Source: a virus (Duplodnaviria > Heunggongvirae > Uroviricota > Caudoviricetes). From it: 57,929 nt of DNA. Positions 6,843 to 57,929 of this stretch are shown here, in pieces; position 1 is the stretch's first letter; every line of letters begins with the position of its first letter. The stretch lies in the IMG/VR virus record IMGVR_UViG_2698536610_000002; one strand, given 5' to 3'. The notes below the pieces were generated by a model that worked only from the letters and a program-made list of their open reading frames with translations, had not been told where the DNA came from and ran no database searches. The translations under genes and the position numbers were made by a program.

Positions 6843-7382
6843 ATGCAACCAATTACATACCAACAGACTAGCGGATTTACCCCGGCTGCGGTGATAAATC
6901 GTTCTCAAACAAAACAGGCGCCAGGCCACGAAAAAATCCGTGATGCCGTTCGCGCCTGGTCGGCTGCAGATAATCAGGATGTTGTTGCCGCACTCATTGT
7001 GAATGAGTATCGGGAGCAGGGCGGCGGCACCATCGATTTCCCTGATGATGTCAGCCGTGCACGCCAGAAGCTGTTCCGCTTCCTCGATAACAAATTCGAT
7101 TCTGAAAAATACCGAAATAACGTGCGTGAACTGACCCCGGCAATTCTGGCGGTACTACCGCTGGAATATCGCGGTTACCTGGTTGAGCAGGATAGCTTCA
7201 TGGCTAGGTTGGCTGAAATGGAAAAGGAACTCAGTGAGGCAAAACAGGCTGTCATTCTCAACGCACCACGCCACCAGAAACTGAAGGAAATTAGTGAAGG
7301 TATTGTGTCGATGTTTCGTGTGGACCCAGATCTGGCTGGTCCATTGATGGCGATGGTTACTACCATGCTGGGGGCGATATGA
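6843..7382 (+). CDS. CII-like regulator (CP76/YdaT family)
   Basis: 179 aa in the cII position; segment LTPAILAVLPLEYR resembles my recollection of YdaT/CII-like prophage regulators; assignment by position and weak memory. Confidence 0.45.
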   Translation: MQPITYQQTSGFTPAAVINRSQTKQAPGHEKIRDAVRAWSAADNQDVVAALIVNEYREQGGGTIDFPDDVSRARQKLFRFLDNKFDSEKYRNNVRELTPAILAVLPLEYRGYLVEQDSFMARLAEMEKELSEAKQAVILNAPRHQKLKEISEGIVSMFRVDPDLAGPLMAMVTTMLGAI

Positions 7383-7468
7383 CAGGTTCAGAAATGGCGA
7401 AAGCCGGTCTGCTGGAACAGAACCGACTTTCAGGTGCAAATCGTAACACACTCATTGCGGGAGGAATT

Positions 7469-8398
7469 ATGGCAAACACTGCTGAGATATTCAATTTTCC
7501 TGTGCCGGATGTGGCACAAAAGGAGCCGCGCGTGGCAGATCTCGATGATGGTTATACGCGCATTGCAAATGAGTTGCTGGAAGCTGTGATGCTGGCCGGA
7601 TTAACACAGCACCAGCTTCTGGTCTTCCTGGCTGTCATGCGCAAAACATATGGCTTTAATAAAAAACTGGATTGGGTGAGCAACGAGCAACTTTCCGAGT
7701 TGACCGGGATATTGCCGCACAAGTGTTCTGCTGCAAAAAGTGTTCTGGTAAAGCGTGGGATTTTTATTCAGAGCGGGCGGAATATCGGCATTAATAATGT
7801 GATCAGTGAATGGTCAACATTACCCGAATCAGGTAAGAAAAATAAAGTTTACCTGAAAGAGGTAAATTTACCTGAATCAGGTAAGAAAAGTTTACCCAAA
7901 TCAGGTAAAGGCGTTTACCCGAATCAGGTAAACACAAAAGACAAACTAACAAAAGACAATATAAAACCTTTTTCGTCCGAGAATTCTGGCGAATCCTCTG
8001 ACCAGCCAGAAAACGATCTTCCTGTGGTGAAACCGGATGCTGCAATTCAGAGCGGCAGCAAGTGGGGGACAGCAGAAGACCTGACCGCCGCAGAGTGGAT
8101 GTTTGACATGGTGAAGACCATCGCGCCATCAGCCAGAAAACCGAATTTTGCAGGGTGGGCTAACGATATCCGCCTGATGCGTGAACGTGACGGACGTAAC
8201 CACCGCGACATGTGCGTGCTGTTCCGCTGGGCATGCCAGGACAACTTCTGGTCCGGTAACGTGCTAAGTCCGGCCAAACTCCGCGACAAGTGGACCCAAC
8301 TCGAAATCAACCGTAACAAGCAACAGGCTGGCGTGACAGCCGGAAAATCAAAACTCGACCTGACAAACACTGACTGGATTTATGGGGTGGATTTATGA
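7469..8398 (+). CDS. O: Replication initiator O
   Basis: Start set at MANTAEIFNF (lambda O starts MTNTAKILNF); N-terminal VADLDDGY...KTYGFNK conserved; iterons embedded in the coding sequence. Confidence 0.9.
   Translation: MANTAEIFNFPVPDVAQKEPRVADLDDGYTRIANELLEAVMLAGLTQHQLLVFLAVMRKTYGFNKKLDWVSNEQLSELTGILPHKCSAAKSVLVKRGIFIQSGRNIGINNVISEWSTLPESGKKNKVYLKEVNLPESGKKSLPKSGKGVYPNQVNTKDKLTKDNIKPFSSENSGESSDQPENDLPVVKPDAAIQSGSKWGTAEDLTAAEWMFDMVKTIAPSARKPNFAGWANDIRLMRERDGRNHRDMCVLFRWACQDNFWSGNVLSPAKLRDKWTQLEINRNKQQAGVTAGKSKLDLTNTDWIYGVDL
7820..7932 (+). repeat. ori iterons (four ~18-19 bp direct repeats) inside O, followed by an AT-rich tract
   Basis: ttacccgaatcaggtaag / tttacctgaaagaggtaaa / tttacctgaatcaggtaag / tttacccaaatcaggtaaa / tttacccgaatcaggtaaa, then aaaagacaaactaacaaaagacaatataaaa. 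Confidence 0.85.
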
Positions 8399-9081
8399 AA
8401 AACATCGCTGCACAGATGATTAACTTTGACCGTGAGCAGATGCGTCGAATCGCCAACAACATGCCGGAACAATACGACGAAAAGCCGCAGGTGCAGCAGG
8501 TGGCGCAGATCATCAACGGTGTGTTCAGCCAGTTACTGGCAACTTTCCCGGCGAGCCTGGCTAACCGCGACCAGAATGAGCTGAACGAAATCCGCCGTCA
8601 GTGGGTTATGGCTTTCCGTGAAAATGGAATTACCACTATGGAGCAGGTTAACGCCGGAATGCGCGTGGCCCGCCGACAGGAGCGACCATTCCTGCCGTCG
8701 CCCGGCCAGTTCGTAGCGTGGTGTAAGCAGAGTGGCGGGGCGTTAGGTATCACTGTTGACCAAGTCATAACCGAATACTGGGATTGGCGTAATCGTTCCT
8801 TCGAATTCACTTCCAGCGAGCATTTCCCGTGGTCACAGCCTGTCATGTACCACATCTGCGTCGAACTGCGCCACCGTAGCATTGAGCGCCAGTTAACGCA
8901 TGGCGAGCTGGCATGCGAGGCTGGTGACCTGCTGGACATGTGGGAGAAGCGCGTCAGTGAGGGCAAACCAATCCCTCCGGTCAGAAAACAAATCTCGGCT
9001 CCGCGCCACGTGCCCGGGCCGACTCCCGCTCAGCTTTTGCTTGAGCAATACAAAGCGCGTAAAGCAGTCGGATTTATTTAA
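8395..9081 (+). CDS. P: Replication protein P (helicase loader)
   Basis: 228 aa; MKNIAAQMINFDREQMRRIANNMPEQYDEKPQVQQVAQIINGVFSQLLATF matches lambda P N-terminus. Confidence 0.9.
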   Translation: MKNIAAQMINFDREQMRRIANNMPEQYDEKPQVQQVAQIINGVFSQLLATFPASLANRDQNELNEIRRQWVMAFRENGITTMEQVNAGMRVARRQERPFLPSPGQFVAWCKQSGGALGITVDQVITEYWDWRNRSFEFTSSEHFPWSQPVMYHICVELRHRSIERQLTHGELACEAGDLLDMWEKRVSEGKPIPPVRKQISAPRHVPGPTPAQLLLEQYKARKAVGFI

Positions 9082-9083
9082 CC

Positions 9084-9668
9084 ATGAACAAGAAATACAC
9101 GTTGATCTAAGCGGATCCGCCCTGGACGTACGAGGATAAATGCAATTCTGGTAAGCGTGGCACCGGGCATAAATACTTGGTTATGACGGTGCAGGATATC
9201 TGCTGGCTGCCAGTAAGGGAGCGGGTTGCAGAAAGCTGCCAGCTGGCGATGTGGTGGTTGCCAACTCAAACGTTCGAGGCGATGAAAGTCGTCGATGCCT
9301 GGGGATTTCGCCTGATCACAATGAAAGGTTTCACTTGGGATAAAACCTACCCGAAGCAAACTGACAAATCGGCGATGGGAATGGGACACCTGATCCGGGC
9401 GAACCGTGAAGATTGTCTTTTCGCGGTAAAGGGTAAGCGGGCACCACAGCAGGACGCCTCGATCATCCAGCACTACACCTCGCCGCGACATGAGCACTCA
9501 CGTAAACCAGACTGCGTGCGTGAAATGCTGGTTCGGTTGCTGGGTAATCTTCCACGTATTGAGCTCTTTGCGCGTAAATCCTCCCACGGTTTCGACGTAT
9601 GGGGAAACAAGTGTGATTCGCCAACCGTATCATTAAGCCCGGCCCGAGTTACTGATGTTTATTCTTAA
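9084..9668 (+). pseudogene. MT-A70-family DNA adenine methyltransferase interrupted by an in-frame TAA at codon 9
   Basis: ATG 9084 MNKKYTLI then TAA (9108-9110), then in-frame ADPPWTYEDK... (DPPW catalytic motif); the longest intact ORF starts only at 9177/9183, downstream of DPPW. Confidence 0.6.
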
Positions 9669-9879
9669 AAGAATTAACTGAAAAGAGGAAGGTTTGATGA
9701 GTTTTTTTACGTGAATTAACACGTAAGACTGCTGGTTATTAAACCATCACATTAGATATCTAAAAATTGTGATCGGTATCTCCCTACTATAAAAAAAAGT
9801 AGTTGAATATACGGTCTATACTTGAAATAAATAAAAGTATTCTTATTTTTTAGATTCTGTGTTGTGAAAAGGAATTTTT

Positions 9880-10911
9880 ATGTCCTCGAATATTTTATCT
9901 GGTGAAAAAGTAATCAATAAAATTGCTGAAAAGTTGAGCGATTATAAATATCCTCCGGCTGAAGGTATGAACTCTGAACATGTCAGCAAATGGATTAAGC
10001 AATTTGCAGTGGAGGATAGACGATTTATCTTAGATGAAACGCTTTATCTACTTAATGCAGGTTACCTATCCGAAAGTCAATATCAACGAAAAATAAAAGC
10101 CATTGCAAGAAGTGAAAAGAACGCGAAATTCTTCAGATATGCAGGTTTTTTAGATATTCAAAAAAAAGGTTCTAGTCAGAAGGAATTGCTTAAATCTCTT
10201 TATGAAACAGTAGGGATCAAATTTAACATCGTTACTGAATCATCAACTCAAGATGAAGTAAATAAATTTGATACATTTGTATATATTGATGATGTGTCGT
10301 TTTCAGGAGAAAAGGCCATCAAATCGATAAGTAATTTTGTTTTAAAATTTAATTTAAGAGATATTAAATTCAATGTATATTTTTTTTCATCTCATACGTT
10401 ATCTGACTATAATATAAAAAGACGATTAGAATATATTTTTAAGGATAGAAACATTTTTGTACACGTGAAGAATGGTGGTATGCGTGAGGTTGAAAACCGA
10501 AAAAGTCGTTCTGCTCAATCAGGTGTTTTCTGGCCAAGGAAATATAGTGTAGATACTCCCGAGAAATTCGAGGAGTGTGAGCTTTACAAAGGCGTATTCA
10601 GAGATGGATATGCCTCTTCTGATAGTTTTAGAAATGAAGCCTCAAGGGATCGTTTCGAATCTATCCTTACTAAAGTCGGCTTTAATATCTTGCTGCACAG
10701 GAAAACCCCTAGTGAGGTGCTCAAACCTCTAGGTTTTTCTACTTTTGACGGTTTGGGTTTTGGGGGAACAACATTTACTTATCGAAATTGCCCGAATAAT
10801 GTGCCGCTGGCTTTTTGGTGGGGAGATTATGAACCAACAGGTGCTCCCGCATTGGACTGCTGGTATCCACTAATGAAGCGGAATGGGTATAATGAGTGGT
10901 ATGAGCTATAG
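9880..10911 (+). CDS. Uncharacterised 343-aa protein, upstream partner of a NADAR gene
   Basis: AT-rich ORF with SD aagga 7 nt upstream; internal FVYIDDVSFSGEKA weakly resembles a PRPP-binding (PRTase) loop; no confident family assignment. Confidence 0.8.
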   Translation: MSSNILSGEKVINKIAEKLSDYKYPPAEGMNSEHVSKWIKQFAVEDRRFILDETLYLLNAGYLSESQYQRKIKAIARSEKNAKFFRYAGFLDIQKKGSSQKELLKSLYETVGIKFNIVTESSTQDEVNKFDTFVYIDDVSFSGEKAIKSISNFVLKFNLRDIKFNVYFFSSHTLSDYNIKRRLEYIFKDRNIFVHVKNGGMREVENRKSRSAQSGVFWPRKYSVDTPEKFEECELYKGVFRDGYASSDSFRNEASRDRFESILTKVGFNILLHRKTPSEVLKPLGFSTFDGLGFGGTTFTYRNCPNNVPLAFWWGDYEPTGAPALDCWYPLMKRNGYNEWYEL

Positions 10912-11512
10912 ATTATATCCGCTACAGAACACAGTTTCCTTCAGGAAAACCACCGAAAAATGGGGGGGGCTTTCCAACATGGCTAAAGGATATCCATTGT
11001 TAATCAATGGGTTGCCTATTCAATCAAGTGAAATCCTTTACCAAGCATGCCGATATCCAGACTATCCGGATATACAAAAGGCCATCATTACTCAAGGAAA
11101 CCCCTATGAAGCCAAGCAGACCGCAAGATCGTTTGAATCCAAAACTCGCGCAGGATGGGATAAGAATCGAGTTTCGATTATGAAGTGGTGTGTATGCGTA
11201 AAATTATGCCAGAACTGGGATACGTTCTTTGCGCTGTTAGACAGTACAGGCGACCATTTCATCGTGGAACACTCAGAGAAGGACCAATTCTGGGGTGCCA
11301 GTAAAGACCCAGAAGGTAACTATTATGGTATGAACGTATTAGGGCGAATTCTCATGGACGTGAGAGGGGTTGCTAGGAAAAAGGGGGCTGATGGGTTTGC
11401 AACAATACCATCGCTATCTTTGGACAAATTTTTTCTCCTAGGCGAAAGAATTAAAGATGTAACATTTGTAGAGCCAACGCCTGGAGCAGGGCAAAGTTTA
11501 TCCTTGTTTTAG
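10883..11512 (+). CDS. NADAR-domain protein (YbiA-like N-glycosidase/ADP-ribose-processing superfamily)
   Basis: 209 aa; N-terminal GGLSNM-type signature (WGGLSNMAKGYPL) and overall YbiA/DUF1768-like layout; overlaps the upstream gene by 29 nt. Confidence 0.7.
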   Translation: MGIMSGMSYRLYPLQNTVSFRKTTEKWGGLSNMAKGYPLLINGLPIQSSEILYQACRYPDYPDIQKAIITQGNPYEAKQTARSFESKTRAGWDKNRVSIMKWCVCVKLCQNWDTFFALLDSTGDHFIVEHSEKDQFWGASKDPEGNYYGMNVLGRILMDVRGVARKKGADGFATIPSLSLDKFFLLGERIKDVTFVEPTPGAGQSLSLF

Positions 11513-11772
11513 CGTTCCATCTGGGGCATTTTCTTCCATAAATTAACTGGCGTACCTCCCTCGGCGTTTTTTTGTTGCCATAAAAGGTTTTTGATTTTCT
11601 ATAATCAACCAGCCATAATCATGTCACCGGAGCCTGAACAACTCCGGTGACTTCTGCGCTAAACGGGGACGTTTATGCGCACATACAATCTAAACTCTCT
11701 TCTCCCGCCACAGATGCAGAAATGCACCTGCGATTTTTTGCATCCAGCGTTTGACCTCTGCGGAGGTGAAGC

Positions 11773-12228
11773 GTGAACCTCCCACAAGACGGCATCAAAC
11801 TTCATCGCGGTAACTTCACCGCTATCGGTCAGCAGCTCCAGCCTTATCTGGAGGACGGCAAGTGCTTCCGCATGGTACTGAAGCCATGGCGCGATAAGCG
11901 CAGCCTGTCTCAAAATAGCTTAAGCCACATGTGGTACACCGAAATCAGCGAATACCTCATCAGCCGGGGTAAGACTTTCGCTACGCCAGAGTGGGTGAAG
12001 GATGCTCTGAAACACACTTATCTCGGTTATGAAACCAAAGAACTGGTTGATGTCGTAACCGGTGATATCACCACTATCCAGTCGTTACGCCATACCTCCG
12101 ATCTTGATACCGGAGAGATGTATGTCTTCCTGTGTAAGGTTGAAGCCTGGGCGATGAATATTGGTTGCCACCTGACTATTCCGCAGCGCTGCGAGTTCCA
12201 GCTGCTGCGCGACAAGCAGGAGGCGTAA
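11773..12228 (+). CDS. ybcN: NinB/YbcN-family protein
   Basis: GTG start with ggagg SD; 151 aa in the ninB position; recalled as a DLP12 YbcN homologue. Confidence 0.7.
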
Positions 12229-13834: not shown

Positions 13835-14917
13835 TTAGAACTGGTAAACCATACCTACAGCAACGATATCATCGGTAGCAACGCCAGATGCTTTCGTGAA
13901 ATCGCTCTTATCAATCAGGTTGATTTTGTAATCAACAAAAGTGGACATATTTTTGTTGAAGTAATAGGTTGCACCTACATCAATATATTCAACCAGGTCC
14001 TGATCACCCCACGCACCCAAGTCTTTTCCTTTAGATTGCAGGTAAGCAACGGACGGACGCAGACCGAAGTCGAACTGATATTGTGCAACTACTTCGAAGT
14101 TTTGTGCTTTGTTGGCAATATGGTTATTACCAAAAACAGTCATGTTCTGGGTTTCAGAATAGGTGGTAGCCAGATAGATGTTGTTCGCATCATATTTCAG
14201 ACCAGCTGCCCATACTTCAGCATTTTGACCAGATGCATTCAGGCTGTTGTTACCGTAGATAACCTGATTATTAGTGCGGTCAGATTTAGCATAGGTTGCA
14301 CCTACACCGAATCCTTCATACTCATAAGTAGTGGAGAAACCGAAACCATCACCATTAGCTTCAGTTACGTCAGTGCGGTCATTTTTACCCTGATACTGAG
14401 CAGCAAAGTTCAGACCATCAACCAGACCAAAGAAGTCGTTGTTACGATAAGTTGCAACACCAGTGGTGCGACCAGTCATGAACACATCTGTTTGGGTCCA
14501 GGTATCGCCACCGAATTCTGGCAGAACGTCAGTCCACGCACCGATGTCATATGCTACACCGTAGTTACGGCCGTAATCGATTGAGCCGTAGTCCCCGAAT
14601 TTCAGGCCTGCAAATGCAAGACGGGTTTTGTCTTTGGAGGAGCCTTGAGATTCAGCGCGGTTGCCTTTGAATTCATATTCCCACTGACCGAAACCAGTCA
14701 GTTGATCGTTGATTTGGGTTTCACCTTTGAAGCCAAGACGGGCATAAGTAGTATCACCATCATCTGCATCATTAGAGGAGAAGTAGTGCTTGGCATTAAC
14801 TTTCCCATATAGATCCAGCTTGTTACTGTCTTTATTATAAATTTCAGCTGCCTGAGCAGACATCGCCATCAGTACTGATGCAGCTACAGCAGAAATTGCC
14901 ACTGTTAATTTTTTCAT
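13835..14917 (-). CDS. nmpC: Outer-membrane porin (NmpC/OmpD-like), intact
   Basis: Start at [23 protein letters not shown] signal peptide; C-terminal ...VAVGMVYQF ending in Phe typical of porins. Confidence 0.9.
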
Positions 14918-15504
14918 CGTGAGCCCTTTTTTTGAACTATTATTAAAAAATGATGTCACTGCGCGATAAATATTCATCTAATCAATGTGATTATTTCAAG
15001 ATGTAAGTTTTAGTTTCTCATTTAATTTGTGAAGTAGATCTCTATTTTTATCTGAACTTTTTCTATCGAAACCTATTTATGGCTCTTATTTGAACAAAAA
15101 TAAACCTATTAGCTAATTTATATTAATGGTTGTTATTTATGGAGGTTCTATAATTCGGCAGTTTAATTTAAATCAACTAAAAATAACGCCTGAAATTATT
15201 TATTGGTTATTTGTTGAGGTTTTCTTATGTATTTGTGGTGGTGTTTTGAACACTCGGTAGCATTCTCATAAATATCATTCAGTGGTTTACGTACGTAAAA
15301 AATTGGTTATGCTGTTAAGAGTGGTTACTTCGTCACACAGCTTAAACCCGCCGTCGAGCTGGTTTTTCCATTTTCTGAGTCTCGATATTAGCTGATAACT
15401 CAATACCTGAGTTATTCACTGACTCCGAGTCTGTTACGTTTCTGCTTTTTTGCGATACGTTGTATTCCCTCAATTTACACCCGCTTTGTCTGCGAGGTGG
15501 GGTT

Positions 15505-15720
15505 ATGAAATCCATGGATAAGTTAACAACGGGTGTCGCCTATGGCACCTCAGCAGGTAGTGCCGGTTACTGGTTTTTACAGCTGCTCGATAAAGTCACG
15601 CCCTCACAGTGGGCAGCAATAGGTGTGCTGGGTAGCCTGGTATTTGGCCTGCTGACGTACCTGACAAACCTTTATTTCAAGATTAAAGAAGATAAGCGCA
15701 AGGCTGCGAGAGGTGAATAA
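15505..15720 (+). CDS. essD: Class I holin with dual-start motif (MKSM)
   Basis: atgaaatccatgg gives Met1-Lys-Ser-Met4; hydrophobic TM segments; 71 aa. Confidence 0.85.
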
Positions 15721-16217
15721 TGCCTCCATCATTACGAAAAGCCGTTGCTGCTGCTATTGGTGGCGGAGCAATTGCTATAGCATCAGTGTTAATCACTGGC
15801 CCAAGTGGTAACGATGGTCTGGAAGGTGTCAGCTACATACCATACAAAGATATTGTTGGTGTATGGACTGTATGTCACGGGCATACAGGAAAAGACATCA
15901 TGCTCGGTAAAACGTATACCAAAGCAGAATGCAAAGCCCTCCTGAATAAAGACCTTGCCACGGTCGCCAGACAAATTAACCCGTACATAAAAGTTGATAT
16001 ACCGGAAACAACGCGCGGCGCTCTTTACTCGTTCGTTTACAACGTGGGCGCTGGCAATTTCAGAACATCGACGCTTCTTCGCAAAATAAACCAGGGCGAT
16101 ATCAAAGGCGCATGTGATCAGCTACGTCGCTGGACATATGCTGGCGGTAAGCAATGGAAAGGTCTCATGACTCGTCGTGAGATTGAGCGTGAAATCTGTT
16201 TGTGGGGTCAGCAATGA
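15720..16217 (+). CDS. rrrD: Phage lysozyme (endolysin)
   Basis: 165 aa; start overlaps holin stop (TAATG); sequence matches DLP12/phage 21-type lysozyme from memory. Confidence 0.9.
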
Positions 16218-52437: not shown

Positions 52438-54420
52438 TTGCTCAACAAGTATAATGGAGTTCCCGTGGATACAGCAGAACATGATGGCAAGTTTGCTTGG
52501 GCTAGTTTTTATGAGGCTTTTGCCAACGCGTTACTGACTTGGCGAAATCGTAGAGATGAATTAGTCAAAGGTATTCATCTAATTGCCTCGGGTGTGGAAG
52601 GAATGTCCCATCTGCAGGACAAATCTATTATGGGAGAGATCTTTCCCTTAAAAGACATTTGTCCGTTTACTACTATGGGCTTGTTCAATCGTAACTTGAC
52701 CGACAGCAATCGCAAAATTATTGCTGCCAAGCTAGCGAATTTGTTGGGCGTGAACGAACCGATTCCTGACTCCTTTGCCGGAATCCCTCTGTTGAATAAC
52801 CAAAAATCTTGGTTCTTTGGTTATGAAAAGTCACGCGACCCTAATGACATTGAATGCTTGTGGGAAATGTTCTCACAGGCAATGACCTTTGCGGATAACC
52901 AGAATACTAACTCTGCAGACTTCACTGCCGCATATGACATCGCTTCTACAGTAATGAATGTCGGTTGGAATCTCACCATGGGGTTGTACTGGACCCGTCC
53001 TTGGTTCTACCCCACTTTAGATAGCCAGTCGCAGTATTACATTCAGACAGTGTTAAACATTAAGATCATTAAAAACGGGGCAAAAGGTCGCTGTAGTGGA
53101 CAAAGTTACCTGAGTCTTATGCGGGCGCTGAACGAGGTCTTTACCCAACCAAACTATCCGGTTCATTCTTTCCCAGAACTTTCCTTATCAGCGTGGAATA
53201 CAGATCTTAGCCAGTCTAAAGATGAGGTGGCAAATAGAACGTGGAAAGCCTCTTTACTGAATAAAATTAAGGCGTTATGCCTGAAAAAAAATGGCCCTTA
53301 TTTCACTGCTTCGGAGTTGGAAGAAAACTACTTGGACGTTTTCAAGGTAGAGCATCCTGAGAGCAAAACTGTTACAAGCTCAATCTACTTTTATCTACAG
53401 AAACTATGCAATGATGATGAGTTAAAGTCCCTCGAGTCCGGAAATTATGAATACCTGAATTTTGAGAAAAACGAATCCCAGACGATAACTGAGGAAACTG
53501 TCGAAGAGAGTGCGCTGTCGCCAAAACTCACCCACGTTCCTTATGACATCAGTCATCTGGTGCAGGATGGCTGTTTCTTGGAAGAGGCTAAGATCCAACT
53601 CACACTTCAGCGCCTGATCGACAAGAAAAACCTGATATTACAAGGACCACCCGGAACTGGAAAAACTTGGTTAGCGCGACGTCTGGCGTACTGCTTGATG
53701 GGAGAAAAAGCACCTGAGCGTATTAGCGCGGTGCAATTTCACCCGAACCTCTCTTACGAAGACTTTATTCGCGGCTGGCGTCCAGGTAAAGAAGGGCAAT
53801 TGACGCTAATTGATGGACCTTTTGTAAATGCAATCAAAACTGCAGTCAATAATCCTACCTCGAAATATGTGGTGATAATTGAAGAGATTAATCGTGGCAA
53901 TCCGGCGCAAATCTTCGGTGAAACACTCACGTTGATGGAAGCAGATAAACGCACGCCGACTGAGGCATTATCTCTTTCCTATCCTAAAAATGCTGATGAA
54001 AAAATATACATTCCTGAGAATCTATATATCATCGGTACGATGAATATTGCAGACCGCTCACTCGCACTACTTGACCTAGCGCTGCGCCGTCGTTTCGCGT
54101 TTATCGATCTAAAGCCAGCTTTTAATGACGCGTGGAGAAACTGGGTAAATTATAATTACGCAATTGATTTTGACATGTTAGCATTCATCAAATCTCGACT
54201 GACGGTATTAAACGATATGCTGGCAAAAGATGTTACCTTAGGACCACAGTTTTGTATCGGTCACAGCTATGTCACCCCAGCTATCGGCCAAAAAATCAAC
54301 GATGCCCAGGCTTGGTATGAACAAGTCGTTGATACAGAGATCTGCCCTTTGCTCGCCGAATATTGGTTCGATGCTCCAAATAAAGTCGATGAAGCCAGAA
54401 AAGTGTTATTAGCAAAATGA
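52438..54420 (+). CDS. McrB-like AAA+ GTPase with a long (~400 aa) N-terminal domain; start codon uncertain (TTG 52438 or GTG 52465)
   Basis: C-terminal half aligns with E. coli McrB: LILQGPPGTGKTWLARRLAY, VVIIEEINRGNPAQIFGE, YIIGTMNIADRSLALLDLALRRRFAFIDL. Confidence 0.8.
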   Translation: MLNKYNGVPVDTAEHDGKFAWASFYEAFANALLTWRNRRDELVKGIHLIASGVEGMSHLQDKSIMGEIFPLKDICPFTTMGLFNRNLTDSNRKIIAAKLANLLGVNEPIPDSFAGIPLLNNQKSWFFGYEKSRDPNDIECLWEMFSQAMTFADNQNTNSADFTAAYDIASTVMNVGWNLTMGLYWTRPWFYPTLDSQSQYYIQTVLNIKIIKNGAKGRCSGQSYLSLMRALNEVFTQPNYPVHSFPELSLSAWNTDLSQSKDEVANRTWKASLLNKIKALCLKKNGPYFTASELEENYLDVFKVEHPESKTVTSSIYFYLQKLCNDDELKSLESGNYEYLNFEKNESQTITEETVEESALSPKLTHVPYDISHLVQDGCFLEEAKIQLTLQRLIDKKNLILQGPPGTGKTWLARRLAYCLMGEKAPERISAVQFHPNLSYEDFIRGWRPGKEGQLTLIDGPFVNAIKTAVNNPTSKYVVIIEEINRGNPAQIFGETLTLMEADKRTPTEALSLSYPKNADEKIYIPENLYIIGTMNIADRSLALLDLALRRRFAFIDLKPAFNDAWRNWVNYNYAIDFDMLAFIKSRLTVLNDMLAKDVTLGPQFCIGHSYVTPAIGQKINDAQAWYEQVVDTEICPLLAEYWFDAPNKVDEARKVLLAK

Positions 54421-55538
54421 CGACAATAACCGGGAGTGAGCAACATACAGCATCACGTATTCCCATGCGAAATATCTGGATGCTGATGCTGTACGCTTCA
54501 GATCTGTTTCGCCAGTTAGGGCGCAATCAGATCGCAGTAGAAGATAACCCAGCAGAAATCCCCGACCTGGTGGCGACAATCCTCCTTCATGAGATTACGC
54601 TGCGCCGACGTCGCAATTTAAATATGGGATACCAAACTTGTCATGCGGCCCTGAACCGGGTGAGAGGGCGCATTGACATACTGTATACTGCCAGTCATCA
54701 ACTGCTGGAACGGGGACAGGTTGCCTGCCATTTTCAAGACATAACCCTCAACACCCCCCGAAATCGCTATGTTCGCTGTGCGTTAGAACGTCTGGCCTCA
54801 ATCATAGTGAAACCGTCTTTGGCGGCAGATTGCCATTTTATGGCAATATCACTTCGCCGTGAGGGGATAAATGGAGGATATCCTGCCCCCCACGAATTAC
54901 CCTCAGTGTGGCGTTTTGGACGCCATGATGCCGCAGATAAACCGATGGTCGATGCCGCACGATTAGCTTTTGAACTGCTGATGCCGACCGAAGATCAAGG
55001 CCAATATCTTTTACCTGCGCCCTCAAATAACCTTTACTGGATGAGAAGACTATTTGAAAAAGGTATCGCTGGCTTATATCGTGTACACCTTGACAAAACA
55101 ACTTGGCAGGTCTCTGCAGGGAAAGAGCTGAAATGGGCGTTGAGCGATCAAAGTGCAGGTAGTGCAGAGATTTTCCCGACAATGAAGTCAGACATTATTC
55201 TGGAACACAAGACTGCCCAGCGGCGTATTATTATCGATACCAAATTTAATTCGATTCTGACAAAGGGTTGGCATCGGGAGCAATCACTACGTAATGGCTA
55301 TATTTATCAGCTATATACCTACCTTAGAACACAGGAGAACAAGACGGATCCGCTTTCGCTCAATGCCGCTGGTCTTCTACTTCATCCAGCTGTTGGCTAT
55401 ATGCTTAATGAGTATGTTGTCACTCAGGGACATAAGATCCATTTTGCTACAGTAGATATGACGGTAGATGCTAAAGCAATTAAAAAACAATTGCTGGCAA
55501 TAGCCCATGATTGTGCAGGAGTCGCGGTTGATGACTAA
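54417..55538 (+). CDS. McrC-like nuclease subunit
   Basis: 373 aa; ATGA start/stop overlap with the McrB-like gene; PD-(D/E)xK-like IIIDTKFN and QLYTYL motifs in the C-terminal half. Confidence 0.75.
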   Translation: MTTITGSEQHTASRIPMRNIWMLMLYASDLFRQLGRNQIAVEDNPAEIPDLVATILLHEITLRRRRNLNMGYQTCHAALNRVRGRIDILYTASHQLLERGQVACHFQDITLNTPRNRYVRCALERLASIIVKPSLAADCHFMAISLRREGINGGYPAPHELPSVWRFGRHDAADKPMVDAARLAFELLMPTEDQGQYLLPAPSNNLYWMRRLFEKGIAGLYRVHLDKTTWQVSAGKELKWALSDQSAGSAEIFPTMKSDIILEHKTAQRRIIIDTKFNSILTKGWHREQSLRNGYIYQLYTYLRTQENKTDPLSLNAAGLLLHPAVGYMLNEYVVTQGHKIHFATVDMTVDAKAIKKQLLAIAHDCAGVAVDD

Positions 55539-56238
55539 CCATCCTATAGGGCACTGGCTGTAATATAATCAATAGTTTCAATTAAGTAGCTGTTATCCGT
55601 GCTTAGTCATCATATGACGCACCACGGTCTAATTTTCCTGCTCATACATTGATATATCCTTGTCGTGCCCGGAAAGTCGCAGTCCACTATGAGGTATACC
55701 GATTGCCAGCACCAAAAGCTTCTTTGTGATTATTATATCGGGGAATGCCTATTTTTTTAGTGACAATATCAGATAGCAATTAATAAGCGGTGCCGGTAAT
55801 GGATGTTATGTTTAATGTATAGACACAGCCATCATAAACTAAACGTCTGTTGTTCGCTCATAACCGACATTTATCTCAGTTATGGAGGATAATTATGTAT
55901 GCAGATAATGGGGCAGACAGTCGTGGAGTAAACAAGGTTTTGCACTGCTTGGCGGCATCGTTATCTTATTTTTAATTATGTGCCTCTTAACATAAGTTGG
56001 GACAAAACAGAGACACATAAGGTCTCACAAAGGTCTGCAAGGCCTCACATGTATTGAGATGTTAATAAAATGTAGACTTGTAATTTGGATATAAATGGTA
56101 GAGAAAACCTTTCCCCAAAATAAAAACGAACGTCAATGAAATCAAACGGTTGAATAAAGTTAATTTTGGCTAATAAAAAGACAATAAAATAATTTTTATC
56201 ATTAAATATCAATGACTTGAATTCATGGTTTTTATATA

Positions 56239-56403
56239 CTGCTGCGCCATATGGGCTGGACTGAAGCCGCAGACCTGATTGTTAAAGGTATGGAAGGCGC
56301 AATCAATGCGAAGACCGTAACCTATGACTTCGAGCGTCTGATGGAAGGCGCTAAACTGCTGAAATGTTCAGAATTTGGTGATGCGATCATCAAGAACATG
56401 TAA
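56239..56403 (+). pseudogene. icd: 3' fragment of isocitrate dehydrogenase gene (icd'), displaced copy marking a phage attachment site
   Basis: Translates [54 protein letters not shown], the Icd C-terminus; in-frame stop 6 codons upstream shows it is only a fragment. Confidence 0.8.
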
Positions 56404-56426
56404 TCACTACATGTGTTTAATATTGC

Positions 56427-56449
56427 AACGGGCGTATAACACGCCCGTT
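56427..56449 (+). terminator. Rho-independent terminator after icd' (aacgggcgt-ataac-acgcccgtt then T-run)
   Basis: Perfect 9-bp stem followed by gttttatttat; a degenerate second copy occurs at 57287-57309. Confidence 0.75.
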
Positions 56450-56505
56450 GTTTTATTTATGTAGGTATTATTAATAGCATATCGAGCATATTTATATAAA
56501 ACCCT

Positions 56506-56829
56506 TTACTTGAGCCCATATGGGCATATTTTTATAATGCAACTATTATGCAAACATTTATTTGTTATTTTGCTTTCTCCTGGAGGACACTCTTGACTGC
56601 TTTTGAGTAGACTCCATAAATCCTTGTTGAATGGTGCGATGTTATAAATAGTAATAGGATATTCTTTATCTTTAAGGATAATTCCAGATTTAACCGGTGT
56701 AAATATACTGCCAGGAGGGAGAAATATAGTAGATTGATACCAGATGATCATTTTCATATTACCCCATATGGCTGAAAAAGATATGCCGCATGAAGGTTGA
56801 ATTATCGTGTCAATTACTATCCACTTCAT
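56506..56829 (-). CDS. Hypothetical ORF in an AT-rich islet between the two terminator copies
   Basis: 107-aa ORF, very AT-rich; no recognisable motif. Confidence 0.25.
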
Positions 56830-57524
56830 TTGTTATGTCTTATCCCACGGTATTTAATATAGTTCATTTGGATGTTCATTTCTTTATTTTGCATATGAGT
56901 ATATTACCCCTTCAAAAAATAAATTAATTAAAACGATTGCTTATATAAAACAAAATTTAAAGCAAGGAATCTCAATGGATGTTAAACAAAATGAGATTTA
57001 GTGAAAACAATAAATTATTCACTTCGTTTTAGATTTGTTTAGCTATAATGTTATACATTCAAATGACTGAACATCCTGTAATTAAAACATAGCCTTTATG
57101 CTACTTTGTGCCAATTTGCTAAACATTATGGTTGCCTTTTTATATAACGATAATAATGAATATAAGCATGACATGAGAATAAGGTTTCAATTTTTGAGTT
57201 ATATAGGAAAGGTTTAACCTGTTCCTGGCTAAAATACATATAACTGGATGATGACTAAACCAAAACACATGTGCGTTAAGTATTGAAACGGGCGTATGGC
57301 ACACCCGTTGTTTTTATAAATATATTAACCGTTATAAAATAACGTATAGAAAGTCAAGTGATCACATTTCAAATATCAATTTGATAGTATTGGCATGGTG
57401 ATTATTTATGGGTAGCAATAAAAGGACAGTATTTATCATCCATAGGTATAGTCTCTGTACTTTTATTCCCATTATGCTAATGCCTTACTGAATTATGAAG
57501 CATTTCTTAAGCATCCAACTTTAG

Positions 57525-57929
57525 CTAGATTAATGGTTTATTATTTTCTACATCTTCAATATATAAAAGCGTATTATCAATGGCGTAGTAACTGCGTTTG
57601 TTATGATTAACATCAGTAACCCACCGGAAAACGCCCGCGCCTGCTAGTGTTGAACAGTATTCCCGAAATGTAGATTTTCCGCAAATATGAAGCAATGCGG
57701 CCTCTTTTATTTTAGCAGGGTTCTTGGTCGTACTAACTTTTAACAGGTTCCTGGTTCCTCTTAATAACAAAACCGTGTCATCGTGAGTAATAATTCTGAT
57801 GTTATCCGTAGCCAGATAATAAATGTAATGTGCAATACGGTGATGTTTTAATTCTGAATAAAACCAGGAGAAGTTTTGCTCTTTTCTCACTTGCTCAAAC
57901 ATCTTTTGAAAAACAACGACCTGATCCAT
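57525..57929 (-). CDS. Hypothetical protein, possibly extending beyond the window end
   Basis: 134-aa ORF whose first Met is at the last codon of the window; 5' end may be truncated by the window. Confidence 0.4.
   Translation of the reverse strand: MDQVVVFQKMFEQVRKEQNFSWFYSELKHHRIAHYIYYLATDNIRIITHDDTVLLLRGTRNLLKVSTTKNPAKIKEAALLHICGKSTFREYCSTLAGAGVFRWVTDVNHNKRSYYAIDNTLLYIEDVENNKPLI

What the first reader, a model, noticed from the sequence alone, without database searches (positions are those of the whole stretch)
9669..11772. Low-GC two-gene cassette (unknown 343-aa protein plus NADAR-domain protein) inserted between replication and nin genes
Between the methyltransferase remnant and ninB lies an AT-rich segment, clearly different in composition from its flanks, with two overlapping genes: a 343-aa protein with no family I can assign (a weak PRPP-binding-loop-like FVYIDDVSFSGEKA motif) and a NADAR/YbiA-like protein. 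NADAR enzymes cleave N-glycosidic ribosyl linkages, including ADP-ribose on guanine, and act as antitoxins to DNA ADP-ribosyltransferases. The arrangement (effector first, 29-nt overlap, reversing enzyme second) at a known prophage cargo hotspot fits a toxin-antitoxin, abortive-infection or NAD/ADP-ribose counter-defence module that may be undescribed. A 10-bp-stem hairpin (11623-11651) follows the cassette.
Basis: partly seen in the sequence, partly recalled or inferred. Interest (0 to 1): 0.85.

Follow-up and report, generated by a model that had tools for sequence, protein, structure and literature searches.

The report
Known DS-32 anti-phage gene pair
This low-GC two-gene insert in a lambdoid prophage is the already published and validated E. 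coli phage-defence system DS-32 (a PRPP-type phosphoribosyltransferase plus a NADAR N-glycosidase), whose mechanism is still unknown but whose relatives point to DNA as its target.

Summary
The two genes exist and are real, but they are not undescribed. Gene 1 (9880-10911) is 343/343 identical to DS-32A. Gene 2 (10901-11512) is 202/203 identical to DS-32B. DS-32 is a defence system validated in the DefensePredictor study (bioRxiv 2025, Science 2026). Both proteins pass NCBIfam equivalog cut-offs, and recent RefSeq annotation already calls them anti-phage proteins.

- Gene 1 has a family (Pfam PRTase-CE), and the PRPP-loop guess was right.
- The overlap is 11 nt, not 29.
- The hairpin belongs to the phage-82/DLP12 backbone, not to the cassette.
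- "ninB" is a YbcN-family gene.

The mechanism is unpublished. In 79 of 79 evaluable loci from many phyla, the PRTase is followed directly by this NADAR. The NADAR active site is invariant. In 30 of the 80 surveyed loci the NADAR is fused to a type I restriction specificity subunit or to a DNA methyltransferase. Other relatives carry HhH, HRDC, LRR or FGE-sulfatase-like domains, or fuse the two enzymes into one chain.

My best inference is a PRPP-dependent writer/eraser pair acting on DNA bases, analogous to DarT1-NADAR. PRPP depletion is the main rival. Novelty: already known. Interest is moderate, because of the open mechanism.

The parts
9669..9879 (+). AT-rich leader of the cassette (27.5% GC). 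Left junction with the MT-A70 pseudogene. Holds a weak sigma-70-like site (TTGAAA-16-TATTTT, 9822-9849) and an AGGA Shine-Dalgarno at 9870-9873, 6 nt before the ATG.
   Evidence: Sequence; GC. The promoter scan gave 9/12 matches, which is not above chance (6 found, 6.2 expected), so the promoter is inferred only.
9880..10911 (+). DS-32A: PRTase-CE family phosphoribosyltransferase-like protein, 343 aa. PRPP loop at residues 133-146 (FVYIDDVSFSGEKA). Family-specific C-terminal block including YRNCPNNVPLAFWWG (residues 301-315) and WYPL (328-331).
10901..11512 (+). DS-32B: YbiA-subfamily NADAR N-glycosidase, 203 aa. Overlaps gene 1 by 11 nt. Active-site residues E44, R51, E123, D128, W131. Conserved extension to about residue 190 and a disordered tail from 193 to 203.
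   Evidence: 202/203 identical to WP_032260665.1, differing by E191K. PF08719 E = 5.7e-23. NF053876 257.4 bits against a 240-bit cut-off. Start codon supported. Active-site conservation. Model pLDDT 92.7, with best PDB matches YbiA 2b3w (TM 0.74) and 8bau.
11513..11588 (+). 3' end of the inserted DNA, up to the right junction with the lambdoid backbone. Contains a weak terminator-like site at 11514-11527 and a T7 run.
   Evidence: Sequence; scan. The junction is set by where the roughly 2,890-genome backbone match begins (query position about 1921 of 9669-11772).
11591..11651 (+). NOT part of the cassette. Backbone promoter-like site (TTGATT-17-CATAAT, 11591-11619) followed by the 10-bp-stem hairpin (11623-11651). 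These correspond to the putative -35/-10 and 'possible regulator-binding site' of phage 82, upstream of orf33 (11675-11776) and ybcN/orf151 (11773-12228).
9084..9668 (+). NOT part of the cassette. Left flank: MT-A70 family DNA methyltransferase pseudogene with an internal stop.
   Evidence: PF05063 E = 2.2e-18 on the 9177-9668 ORF. RefSeq pseudogene in the DNA-identical genomes.

Best explanation
SHOWN. The cassette is the DS-32 anti-phage system, carried as cargo in the P-to-ybcN slot of a DLP12/82-like lambdoid prophage integrated at icd. It encodes DS-32A, a PRTase-CE phosphoribosyltransferase-like protein with an intact PRPP-binding loop. It also encodes DS-32B, a YbiA-subfamily NADAR N-glycosidase with an intact active site. 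The two genes overlap by 11 nt, consistent with translational coupling.

INFERRED MECHANISM. The pair works as a writer and an eraser. DS-32A is the regulated effector. It uses PRPP to attach ribose-5-phosphate through an N-glycosidic bond to a target, most likely a nucleobase in DNA, which blocks replication of the phage (and of the cell if unchecked). DS-32B hydrolyses that bond, the same chemistry NADARs perform on guanine-N2-ADP-ribose and on 5-phosphoribosylamino-pyrimidines, and so keeps host DNA clean until infection tips the balance. This would make DS-32 a PRPP-dependent analogue of DarT1-NADAR.

UNKNOWN. The infection trigger is not known for the stand-alone E. coli form.

Confidence in the identity as DS-32 is about 0.97. 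Confidence that the PRTase is the effector and the NADAR the protective partner is about 0.65. Confidence that DNA is the target is about 0.4 to 0.45. The single figure given (0.5) is for the mechanism as a whole.
For: IDENTITY. Gene 1 is 343/343 and gene 2 is 202/203 identical to the DS-32 construct. Both pass NCBIfam equivalog cut-offs. RefSeq assigns the same accession, WP_000097610.1.

OBLIGATE PAIR. A NADAR gene lies directly downstream on the same strand in 79 of 79 evaluable loci from many phyla. It is also present next to the LRR-, FGE-sulfatase- and HRDC-fused PRTase variants. A single-chain PRTase-CE::NADAR fusion exists (P0338).

BOTH ENZYMES LOOK ACTIVE. The PRPP loop and the candidate PPi-loop residues are invariant. 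NADAR residues E44, R51, E123, D128 and W131 are 96-100% conserved; they map to the residues shown to be catalytic in PMC11543638.

PRTASE AS THE REGULATED EFFECTOR. Ligand-sensor-type domains (LRR, FGE-sulfatase-like) are fused to the PRTase, not to the NADAR. The homologous Retron-Eco11 PRTase is the effector, and its PRPP motif is required for defence (PMC12746101). The PRTase diverges much faster than the NADAR: 52% against 85% identity between the two E. coli alleles, and a median of 29% against 45% across 72 of 72 loci.

NADAR AS THE PROTECTIVE, DNA-DIRECTED PARTNER. In 26 of 80 loci the NADAR is fused to the only HsdS of a tightly coupled hsdM-PRTase-NADAR::hsdS-hsdR operon. In 4 loci it is fused to a DUF1156 DNA methyltransferase next to an SNF2/NOV_C helicase-nuclease. 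Other relatives carry a HhH domain. It is never fused to the nuclease or helicase subunit. One PRTase carries an HRDC nucleic-acid-binding domain.

CHEMISTRY. DS-32B is closest to E. coli YbiA. YbiA is reported to cleave N-glycosidic bonds of riboflavin-pathway intermediates, and to remove ADP-ribose from guanine in DNA in vitro (PMC11543638 and PMC11125620). That those riboflavin intermediates are N-(5-phosphoribosyl)amines is from my own knowledge.
Confidence: 0.5

Rival explanations
1. Metabolic abortive infection. DS-32A consumes PRPP by transferring ribose-5-phosphate to a small-molecule acceptor. DS-32B hydrolyses the product back to base plus ribose-5-phosphate. Either this detoxifies the product (NADAR as antitoxin) or it closes a futile cycle whose net reaction is PRPP hydrolysis, starving the phage of nucleotides.
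For: Activation of the homologous Retron-Eco11 PRTase lowers PRPP by about 50% and is linked to abortive infection. ShosT and the Ophion OpnC PRTase are read as nucleotide-metabolism effectors. DS-32B is closest to YbiA, a small-molecule N-glycosidase. Strict co-occurrence, gene coupling and a single-chain PRTase::NADAR fusion are typical of consecutive enzymes. A strongly conserved NADAR fits a fixed small substrate.
Against: This does not explain why the NADAR is repeatedly fused to DNA-recognition or DNA-modification proteins (HsdS, DUF1156 methyltransferase, HhH), nor why a PRTase carries HRDC. No acceptor is known for any defence PRTase. A fall in PRPP would also follow from macromolecular phosphoribosylation with turnover.
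Confidence: 0.27
2. Guard of a restriction system (PrrC-EcoprrI logic). The PRTase-NADAR module is a second-line effector held silent by an intact R-M complex and released when a phage anti-restriction protein attacks that complex. The stand-alone E. coli form would be a derivative that guards something else or senses directly.
For: 26 loci have hsdM-PRTase-NADAR::hsdS-hsdR with the fused HsdS as the only S subunit and overlapping stop/start codons. A further 4 loci use a DUF1156 methyltransferase with a helicase-nuclease. The precedent of PrrC embedded in the EcoprrI type I locus is established knowledge, from memory.
Against: The window's cassette has no adjacent R-M gene other than a dead MT-A70 methyltransferase. 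DS-32 defended when cloned on its own in MG1655. 40 of the 43 short-form loci have no R-M-like gene detected in the roughly 6-kb flanks. This rival concerns the trigger, not the chemistry, so it can coexist with either chemistry.
Confidence: 0.12
3. Reversed roles. The NADAR is the toxic effector, an N-glycosidase that destroys nucleotides or de-bases nucleic acid. The PRTase is its antidote (re-making nucleotides from base and PRPP) or its sensor.
For: N-glycosidase effectors are known in defence, for example the Retron-Sen2 N-glycosidase effector named. The NADAR is the more conserved partner. Sensor-type domains are attached to the PRTase.
Against: In retrons the homologous PRTase is the effector, and its PRPP motif is needed for trigger-dependent toxicity. 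Characterised NADARs are antitoxins or repair enzymes. The NADAR is fused to the protective R-M components (S subunit, methyltransferase) and never to nucleases. The gene order matches the DefensePredictor authors' TA-partner-swap suggestion.
Confidence: 0.06
4. Prophage counter-defence or housekeeping cargo. The pair protects the phage against host ADP-ribose or NAD-based immunity, or is a nucleotide or riboflavin salvage and damage-control moron with no defence role.
For: Phage NADARs are proposed to counter host ADP-ribose signals or DNA ADP-ribosylation. DS-32B nearly reaches the riboflavin-fusion TIGR02464 cut-off (70.5 against 73.7 bits).
Against: The DS-32 construct (identical gene 1, gene 2 differing at one residue) gave reproducible anti-phage protection in a heterologous host. 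No phage genome in the 50,697-record collection carries the cassette. Relatives sit in R-M operons and chromosomal loci, not in riboflavin or purine operons.
Confidence: 0.03

Closest known systems
DS-32 (DefensePredictor; DS-32A WP_000097610.1 plus DS-32B WP_032260665.1; NCBIfam NF053875/NF053876)
   Same: It is this system. Gene 1 is identical, gene 2 differs by one residue (E191K in the low-confidence tail region), and the gene order is the same. The E. coli copies examined sit in the same prophage slot.
   Different: Only the E191K substitution. The reference paper reports the phenotype and domain content, and I found no mechanism there. I also found no mention there of the R-M-embedded and sensor-fused relatives.
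DarT1-NADAR (DarTG1) and YarT-YbiA toxin-antitoxin pairs
   Same: A two-gene module in which a NADAR N-glycosidase is paired with a transferase that makes an N-glycosidic ribosyl linkage. In those systems the NADAR is the antitoxin and DNA guanine is the target. DarTG is reported to protect against phages.
   Different: The transferase here is a type I PRTase fold with a PRPP loop, not an ART, so the expected donor is PRPP and not NAD+. DS-32B belongs to the YbiA subfamily (Glu in the last strand), not the DarT1-linked BC4488 subfamily (Asp). Toxin-antitoxin behaviour is untested.
Retron type III-A effector PRTase (Retron-Eco11)
   Same: Homologous PRTase-CE domain along its length (PADLOC PRTase_III-A, E = 7.5e-11), a shared PRPP loop and the family-specific PNNxP block. 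It is a defence effector, and defence requires its PRPP motif.
   Different: There is no reverse transcriptase, no ncRNA and no winged-helix C-terminal domain here. The partner is a NADAR enzyme instead of RT-msDNA.
ShosTA and Ophion (other PRTase-containing defence systems)
   Same: A PRPP-binding PRTase acts as the toxic or effector component of a phage-defence system.
   Different: ShosT has a fused pyrophosphatase and a DprA-like antitoxin. Ophion pairs its PRTase with radical-SAM and PHP enzymes. Neither has a NADAR. DS-32A matched no ShosT model in PADLOC.
PrrC-EcoprrI (effector embedded in a type I R-M locus)
   Same: Relatives of DS-32 are embedded inside type I R-M operons in the same way: hsdM-PRTase-NADAR::hsdS-hsdR.
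   Different: Here one partner is covalently fused to HsdS. The effector is a PRTase, not an anticodon nuclease. The window's own copy is not R-M-associated.

Membership tests
DS-32 anti-phage system | Gene 1 matches the DS32_1 equivalog model above its curated cut-off | tested here: met
   NF053875: 312.7 bits against a 250-bit cut-off, covering 12-334 of the protein and 2-322 of 322 model positions. 343/343 identical to the reference protein.
DS-32 anti-phage system | Gene 2 matches the DS32_2 equivalog model above its curated cut-off | tested here: met
   NF053876: 257.4 bits against a 240-bit cut-off. 202/203 identical to the reference.
DS-32 anti-phage system | The two genes are adjacent, on the same strand, with the PRTase first | tested here: met
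   9880-10911 then 10901-11512. The same order holds in 79 of 79 related loci.
DS-32 anti-phage system | Confers protection against phages | not testable with these tools
   Published for the reference construct: Bas26 -log EOP 3.7, RB69 1.6. This allele differs by E191K and has not itself been tested.
Type I phosphoribosyltransferase superfamily | PRPP-binding loop (hydrophobic run, two acidic residues, then [ST]-G) | tested here: met
   FVYIDDVSFSGEKA. D137, D138, F141 are invariant and G143 is at least 90% conserved in 36 homologues.
Type I phosphoribosyltransferase superfamily | Rossmann-like PRTase core fold | tested here: met
Type I phosphoribosyltransferase superfamily | PRPP-dependent transferase activity on a defined acceptor | not testable with these tools
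Retron type III-A (PRTase effector) | PRTase-CE domain with the retron-type PNNxP block | tested here: met
   PF24390 E = 5.9e-39. PADLOC PRTase_III-A E = 7.5e-11. NCPNNVP has invariant R302, N303, P305, N306 and P309. Motif definition from PMC12746101.
Retron type III-A (PRTase effector) | Adjacent reverse transcriptase and msr/msd ncRNA | tested here: not met
   No RT ORF between 9000 and 12300. No Rfam match at E <= 1. The neighbour is a NADAR gene instead.
NADAR superfamily, YbiA subfamily | NADAR domain above the Pfam gathering score | tested here: met
   PF08719: 82.4 bits against a 35.1-bit cut-off. Foldseek TM 0.74 to YbiA 2b3w and 0.66-0.70 to 8bau.
NADAR superfamily, YbiA subfamily | Catalytic Glu and Lys, plus the subfamily-defining Glu in the last strand | tested here: met
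   E44 and E123 are 100% conserved. The Lys position is an invariant Arg (R51) in this family. D128 and W131 are conserved. Residue roles are from PMC11543638 and PMC11125620. In the DarT1-linked NADAR, the K-to-R change retained in-vitro activity but no longer rescued cells from DarT1 toxicity.
DarTG1 (DarT1-NADAR) toxin-antitoxin | Toxin is a DarT-type ADP-ribosyltransferase | tested here: not met
   Gene 1 matches only PRTase-CE in Pfam and PRTase_III-A in PADLOC. It has a PRTase fold. The DefensePredictor authors also found no similarity to DarT.
DarTG1 (DarT1-NADAR) toxin-antitoxin | NADAR of the BC4488 subfamily (Asp replaces the last-strand Glu) | tested here: not met
   E123 is Glu. 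The PDB sequence match to YbiA is 2e-11. The only other NADAR entries matched are also non-DarT1-linked, and no DarT1-linked NADAR reached significance.
Toxin-antitoxin system (generic) | Gene 1 alone is toxic and gene 2 neutralises it | not testable with these tools
   I did not find this in the DefensePredictor text or the supplementary tables I read. Only gene order, coupling and the fusion partners bear on it.

The most novel reading that the evidence does not exclude
DS-32 and its relatives may catalyse a DNA modification not yet described: PRPP-dependent N-phosphoribosylation of nucleobases by the PRTase-CE enzyme, erased by a dedicated YbiA-type NADAR. In many phyla this writer/eraser pair is built into restriction enzymes by fusing the eraser to the type I specificity subunit or to a DNA methyltransferase. 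It would then act as a second layer of DNA-level immunity, or as a guard, riding on R-M complexes.
Probability: 0.35. Interest if true: 0.85.

Novelty: already known. Interest (0 to 1): 0.4.

Why it matters
As an annotation, the finding is settled: this is DS-32, a published defence system. What remains open is how a phosphoribosyltransferase kills or blocks a phage, a question shared with type III-A retrons, ShosTA and Ophion.

The comparative evidence gathered here consists of the strict PRTase-NADAR linkage, an invariant N-glycosidase active site, and fusions to HsdS, DNA methyltransferase, HhH, HRDC, LRR and FGE-sulfatase-like domains. It turns that question into a direct experiment: does DS-32A put ribose-5-phosphate on DNA, and does DS-32B take it off?

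A positive answer would add PRPP to NAD+ as a donor for reversible DNA base modification. It would also reveal a new class of accessory module in restriction enzymes.

Tried and rejected
- **Phage genome search.** Only the backbone flank matched. The cassette is absent from 50,697 phage records at megablast sensitivity.
- **PDB sequence search with the DS-32A profile.** No hits, so no solved close relative exists.
- **Hairpin as the cassette's terminator.** Rejected. It has no T-run and is a conserved backbone element annotated in phage 82.
- **Promoter scan.** Hits were not above the shuffle expectation, so no promoter claim is made.
- **Retron hypothesis.** No RT ORF and no Rfam hit.
- **ShosT and DarT membership.** No matching models.
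- **Literature searches.** 'PRTase-CE', NADAR with HsdS, DUF1768 with restriction, and PRPP with anti-phage and phosphoribosylation found nothing relevant. The library omits most subscription papers, so absence there does not prove novelty.
- **Phrase search of the tab-separated phenotype table.** It failed, so the table was read directly instead.
- **Complex prediction.** A DS-32A/DS-32B complex could not be modelled with the single-chain tool.
Full report
**What is in the sequence**

Between 9669 and about 11588 lies a 1.9-kb segment of 37.6% GC. The window averages 50.0% GC (z = -2.1), and only about 2% of equal-sized windows are as low. The leader is 27.5% GC, gene 1 is 35.6% (GC3 29%) and gene 2 is 43.6%, against 52-54% in the flanks. 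The segment holds two same-strand ORFs, 9880-10911 (343 aa) and 10883-11512.

- The left flank is replication gene P followed by an MT-A70 methyltransferase pseudogene.
- The right flank is a conserved lambdoid backbone: a putative promoter, a 29-nt inverted repeat, orf33 and ybcN/orf151.
- The window as a whole is a lambdoid prophage at the icd site. It runs from the integrase (1-1143) through the O/P genes, the nin/Q region and a prophage porin to a McrBC-like pair at 52438-55538.

**Identity**

Gene 1 matches Pfam PF24390 PRTase-CE (E = 5.9e-39) and the NCBIfam equivalog NF053875, "DS32_1 phosphoribosyltransferase-like anti-phage protein" (312.7 bits, cut-off 250). Gene 2 matches PF08719 NADAR (E = 5.7e-23) and NF053876, "DS32_2 NADAR family anti-phage protein" (257.4 bits, cut-off 240).

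DS-32 is one of the systems validated in the DefensePredictor study (bioRxiv 10.1101/2025.01.08.631726; Science 2026, PMC13092281). The cloned construct, "NADR", came from an E. coli genome (GCF_003333945.1) and encodes WP_000097610.1 and WP_032260665.1. Compared with the sequences printed in that paper's supplement, the window's gene 1 is 343/343 identical. Gene 2, read from ATG 10901, is 202/203 identical, differing by E191K. RefSeq gives the same accession to gene 1 in DNA-identical genomes, and the newest PGAP annotations already say "anti-phage protein".

In that paper's screen, DS-32 reduced plating of Bas26 by 10^3.7, RB69 by 10^1.6, SECphi18 by 10^0.9 and T5 by 10^0.6. All gave small plaques. 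The finding is therefore an already described system, not a new one.

- **Overlap.** The conserved start of gene 2 is ATG 10901. RefSeq and the published protein start there. In the diverged E. coli allele the PRTase stop codon sits two bases before this Met. The overlap is therefore 11 nt, not 29.
- **Hairpin.** The hairpin at 11623-11651 is real but lies outside the inserted DNA. It is the "possible regulator-binding site" annotated in phage 82 after a putative -35/-10 (X92588), on backbone DNA present in about 2,890 of 5,426 complete E. coli genomes.
- **Downstream gene.** It is YbcN-family; its NinB Pfam score is below the cut-off.
- **PRPP loop.** D137, D138, F141 and G143 are invariant or nearly so.

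**Distribution in E. coli**

The cassette is rare. 19 of 5,426 complete genomes carry this allele at 99.4% identity or higher, and 43 carry a diverged allele. No phage record carries it. Both alleles occupy the same slot, after P (with or without MT-A70) and before orf33/ybcN of DLP12/82-like prophages, so the "cargo hotspot" idea holds. Between the two alleles the NADAR is 85% identical but the PRTase only 52%.

**The two proteins**

*DS-32B.* It models at pLDDT 92.7. It resembles only YbiA-subfamily structures: E. coli YbiA at TM 0.74 and 27% identity, and the Phytophthora NADAR at TM 0.66-0.70. At sequence level it matches YbiA at 2e-11. Its active site is intact and invariant across 75 family members: E44, R51 (always Arg at the Lys position), the YbiA-type E123, D128 and W131. 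The catalytic roles of the equivalent residues were established for other NADARs. It is thus a YbiA-type NADAR rather than the DarT1-linked subtype, a nuance relative to the DefensePredictor text.

**Comparative genomics**

I did not find the following described in the DefensePredictor text or in any paper the searches returned.

*Strict linkage.* A scan of about 100,000 species genomes found 174 relatives of DS-32A, and 80 loci were retrieved. They span Proteobacteria, Myxococcota, Planctomycetota, Chloroflexota, Acidobacteriota, Thermodesulfobacteriota, Actinomycetota, Patescibacteria and others. A DS-32B-type NADAR gene lies immediately downstream on the same strand in 79 of 79 evaluable loci; the one exception ends at a contig edge. 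The NADAR is more conserved than the PRTase in 72 of 72 comparisons, with medians of 45% and 29% identity. An exhaustive profile search finds 1,218 cluster representatives, 614 of them at E <= 1e-30, among 1.84 billion. The family is rare but broad.

*Operon architectures among the 80 loci:*

| Architecture | Loci | Details |
|---|---|---|
| Stand-alone pair, as in E. coli | 43 | 40 have no R-M-like gene detected in the roughly 6-kb flanks |
| NADAR fused to the N-terminus of a complete type I R-M specificity subunit | 26 | The fusion is the only HsdS in the locus. Operon is hsdM-PRTase-NADAR::hsdS-hsdR, with 4-nt stop/start overlaps between hsdM and the PRTase gene in 15 loci. |
| NADAR fused to a DUF1156 DNA methyltransferase | 4 | An SNF2/NOV_C helicase-nuclease lies alongside |
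| NADAR with a 120-130-aa extension | 3 | Helix-hairpin-helix domain in L071; L010 and L054 unidentified |
| NADAR present but not ORF-called, or contig end | 4 | NADAR confirmed by tblastn in 3; L049 ends at a contig edge |

*Fusions on the PRTase side.* Variants carry N-terminal leucine-rich repeats, an N-terminal FGE-sulfatase-like domain, or a C-terminal HRDC domain. Each still has a NADAR gene directly downstream. One protein is a single-chain PRTase-CE::NADAR fusion.

**How it most likely works**

*Shown.* The pair is obligate, both active sites are under strong constraint, and the DS-32 construct (identical gene 1, gene 2 differing at one residue) defends against phage.

*Inferred, step 1: the PRTase is the regulated effector.*
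- Ligand-sensor-type domains attach to it.
- It diverges fast.
- Its retron homologue is the effector, and that effector's PRPP motif is required for defence.

*Inferred, step 2: the NADAR is the protective partner.*
- Characterised NADARs are antitoxins or damage-control enzymes.
- It is fused only to the protective arms of R-M systems (S subunit, methyltransferase) and never to nuclease or helicase subunits.

*Inferred, step 3: the substrate is probably DNA.*
- HsdS, DNA methyltransferase, HhH and HRDC are all nucleic-acid modules.
- NADARs, including E. coli YbiA, remove ADP-ribose from guanine in DNA.

*Chemistry.* A PRTase makes an N-(5-phosphoribosyl) linkage. That matches the bond YbiA-type NADARs hydrolyse; the identity of YbiA's riboflavin-pathway substrates as N-(5-phosphoribosyl)amines is from my own knowledge. 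The model is therefore a PRPP-dependent writer/eraser on DNA bases, a PRPP analogue of DarT1-NADAR. The trigger is unknown for the stand-alone form.

*Confidence.* Identity about 0.97. Role assignment about 0.65. DNA target about 0.4 to 0.45.

**Rivals**

- **PRPP depletion (main rival).** Retron-Eco11 activation lowers PRPP by about 50%. PRTase plus NADAR could also form a futile cycle that hydrolyses PRPP. This fits the strict linkage and the single-chain fusion, but not the DNA-module fusions.
- **Guard of an R-M complex.** A PrrC-EcoprrI-like model fits the R-M-embedded forms. It concerns the trigger and cannot apply as such to the window's stand-alone copy.
- **Reversed roles** (NADAR as toxin), **counter-defence**, and **housekeeping** readings are poorly supported.

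**Limits**

- No experiment was possible. I found no report of toxicity or rescue.
- ORF starts in the 80 loci are upper bounds.
- The literature library omits most subscription journals, so failing to find a prior description of the NADAR::HsdS fusions does not prove there is none.
- Native expression of the cassette in the lysogen is inferred only.

**Verdict**

Novelty: already known. Interest is moderate (0.4) because the mechanism is open and the comparative evidence makes a specific, unusual hypothesis directly testable.

Noticed in passing
L008, L009, L025, L027, L033, L034, L038, L041, L042, L048, L053, L057-L061, L063, L067-L069, L073-L076, L081, L082 (NADAR ORF at about 6900-9200 in most of these loci): In 26 genomes from several phyla the DS-32B-type NADAR domain is fused to the N-terminus of the only HsdS subunit of a type I R-M operon (hsdM-PRTase-NADAR::hsdS-hsdR, with overlapping stop/start codons). 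No description of this was found in the searchable literature.
   Followed up: yes
L021, L062, L077, L079 (NADAR ORFs of 1178-1398 aa); L065: The NADAR is fused to a DUF1156 domain plus a DNA methyltransferase, next to an SNF2/NOV_C helicase-nuclease (and, in L077, a DUF3644/EC042_2821 REase-like protein). In L065 the same genes are present but not fused.
   Followed up: partly
P0338, P0350 (L085-L087), P0328 (L088-L090), P0258, P0207, L071:6938-7903: Other architectures of the same core: a single-chain PRTase-CE::NADAR; LRR::PRTase; FGE-sulfatase-like::PRTase; PRTase::HRDC; and NADAR::HhH. The three PRTase variants checked all keep a NADAR gene immediately downstream.
   Followed up: partly
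window 11591-11651: A promoter-like site followed by a perfect 10-bp-stem inverted repeat. These match the putative -35/-10 and 'possible regulator-binding site' of phage 82, conserved upstream of orf33/ybcN in about 2,890 of 5,426 E. coli genomes. Its regulator is not identified.
   Followed up: partly
window 9084-9668: An MT-A70 family DNA methyltransferase pseudogene (internal stop) lies immediately upstream of the cassette in the two examined E. coli genomes that carry this allele. The examined copy of the diverged allele lacks it. This is probably coincidental to the R-M association seen elsewhere.
   Followed up: partly
window 52438-55538: A second defence-type locus at the right end of the prophage: an AAA_5 (McrB-like) ATPase of 660 aa plus a McrC-family protein of 373 aa. 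It is followed by a low-GC region (55200-57929) holding host genes near icd (iraM, ycgX).
   Followed up: partly
window 6843-7382: A YdaT toxin-domain protein (PF06254, E = 8.6e-30) is encoded between the cro/cII-like HTH gene and replication gene O.
   Followed up: no
window 13835-14977 (minus strand), with a low-GC island at about 14300-15900: A prophage-borne OmpC/NmpC-type porin gene (Porin_1, E = 3.7e-153) sits between Q and the lysis genes, with a low-GC upstream region.
   Followed up: no
L083:6233-7866 (E. coli STN0717-20) compared with window 9880-11512: A second E. coli allele sits in the same prophage slot. Its NADAR is 85% identical but its PRTase only 52%, and the two genes are separated by 2 nt instead of overlapping. 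The asymmetry suggests diversifying selection on the PRTase.
   Followed up: partly
L003:6001-9671 (Enterobacter mori): Two PRTase-CE genes lie in one locus. An orphan copy 76% identical to DS-32A lies about 1 kb (two ORFs) upstream of a second 341-aa ORF, likely the 52%-identical PRTase P0009, that directly precedes the NADAR.
   Followed up: no
L083:1019-2592 and L084:1-1001: Related prophages carry other defence cargo next to the repressor gene. One is DUF3037 plus a HipA-family kinase, with the same accessions as DefensePredictor DS-6. The other is a SIR2-family protein.
   Followed up: no
window 10901-11512: PADLOC gives a weak match of DS-32B to PDC-M42C (E = 1.5e-8), a component of another candidate defence system that contains a NADAR-like protein. 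The relationship was not explored.
   Followed up: no
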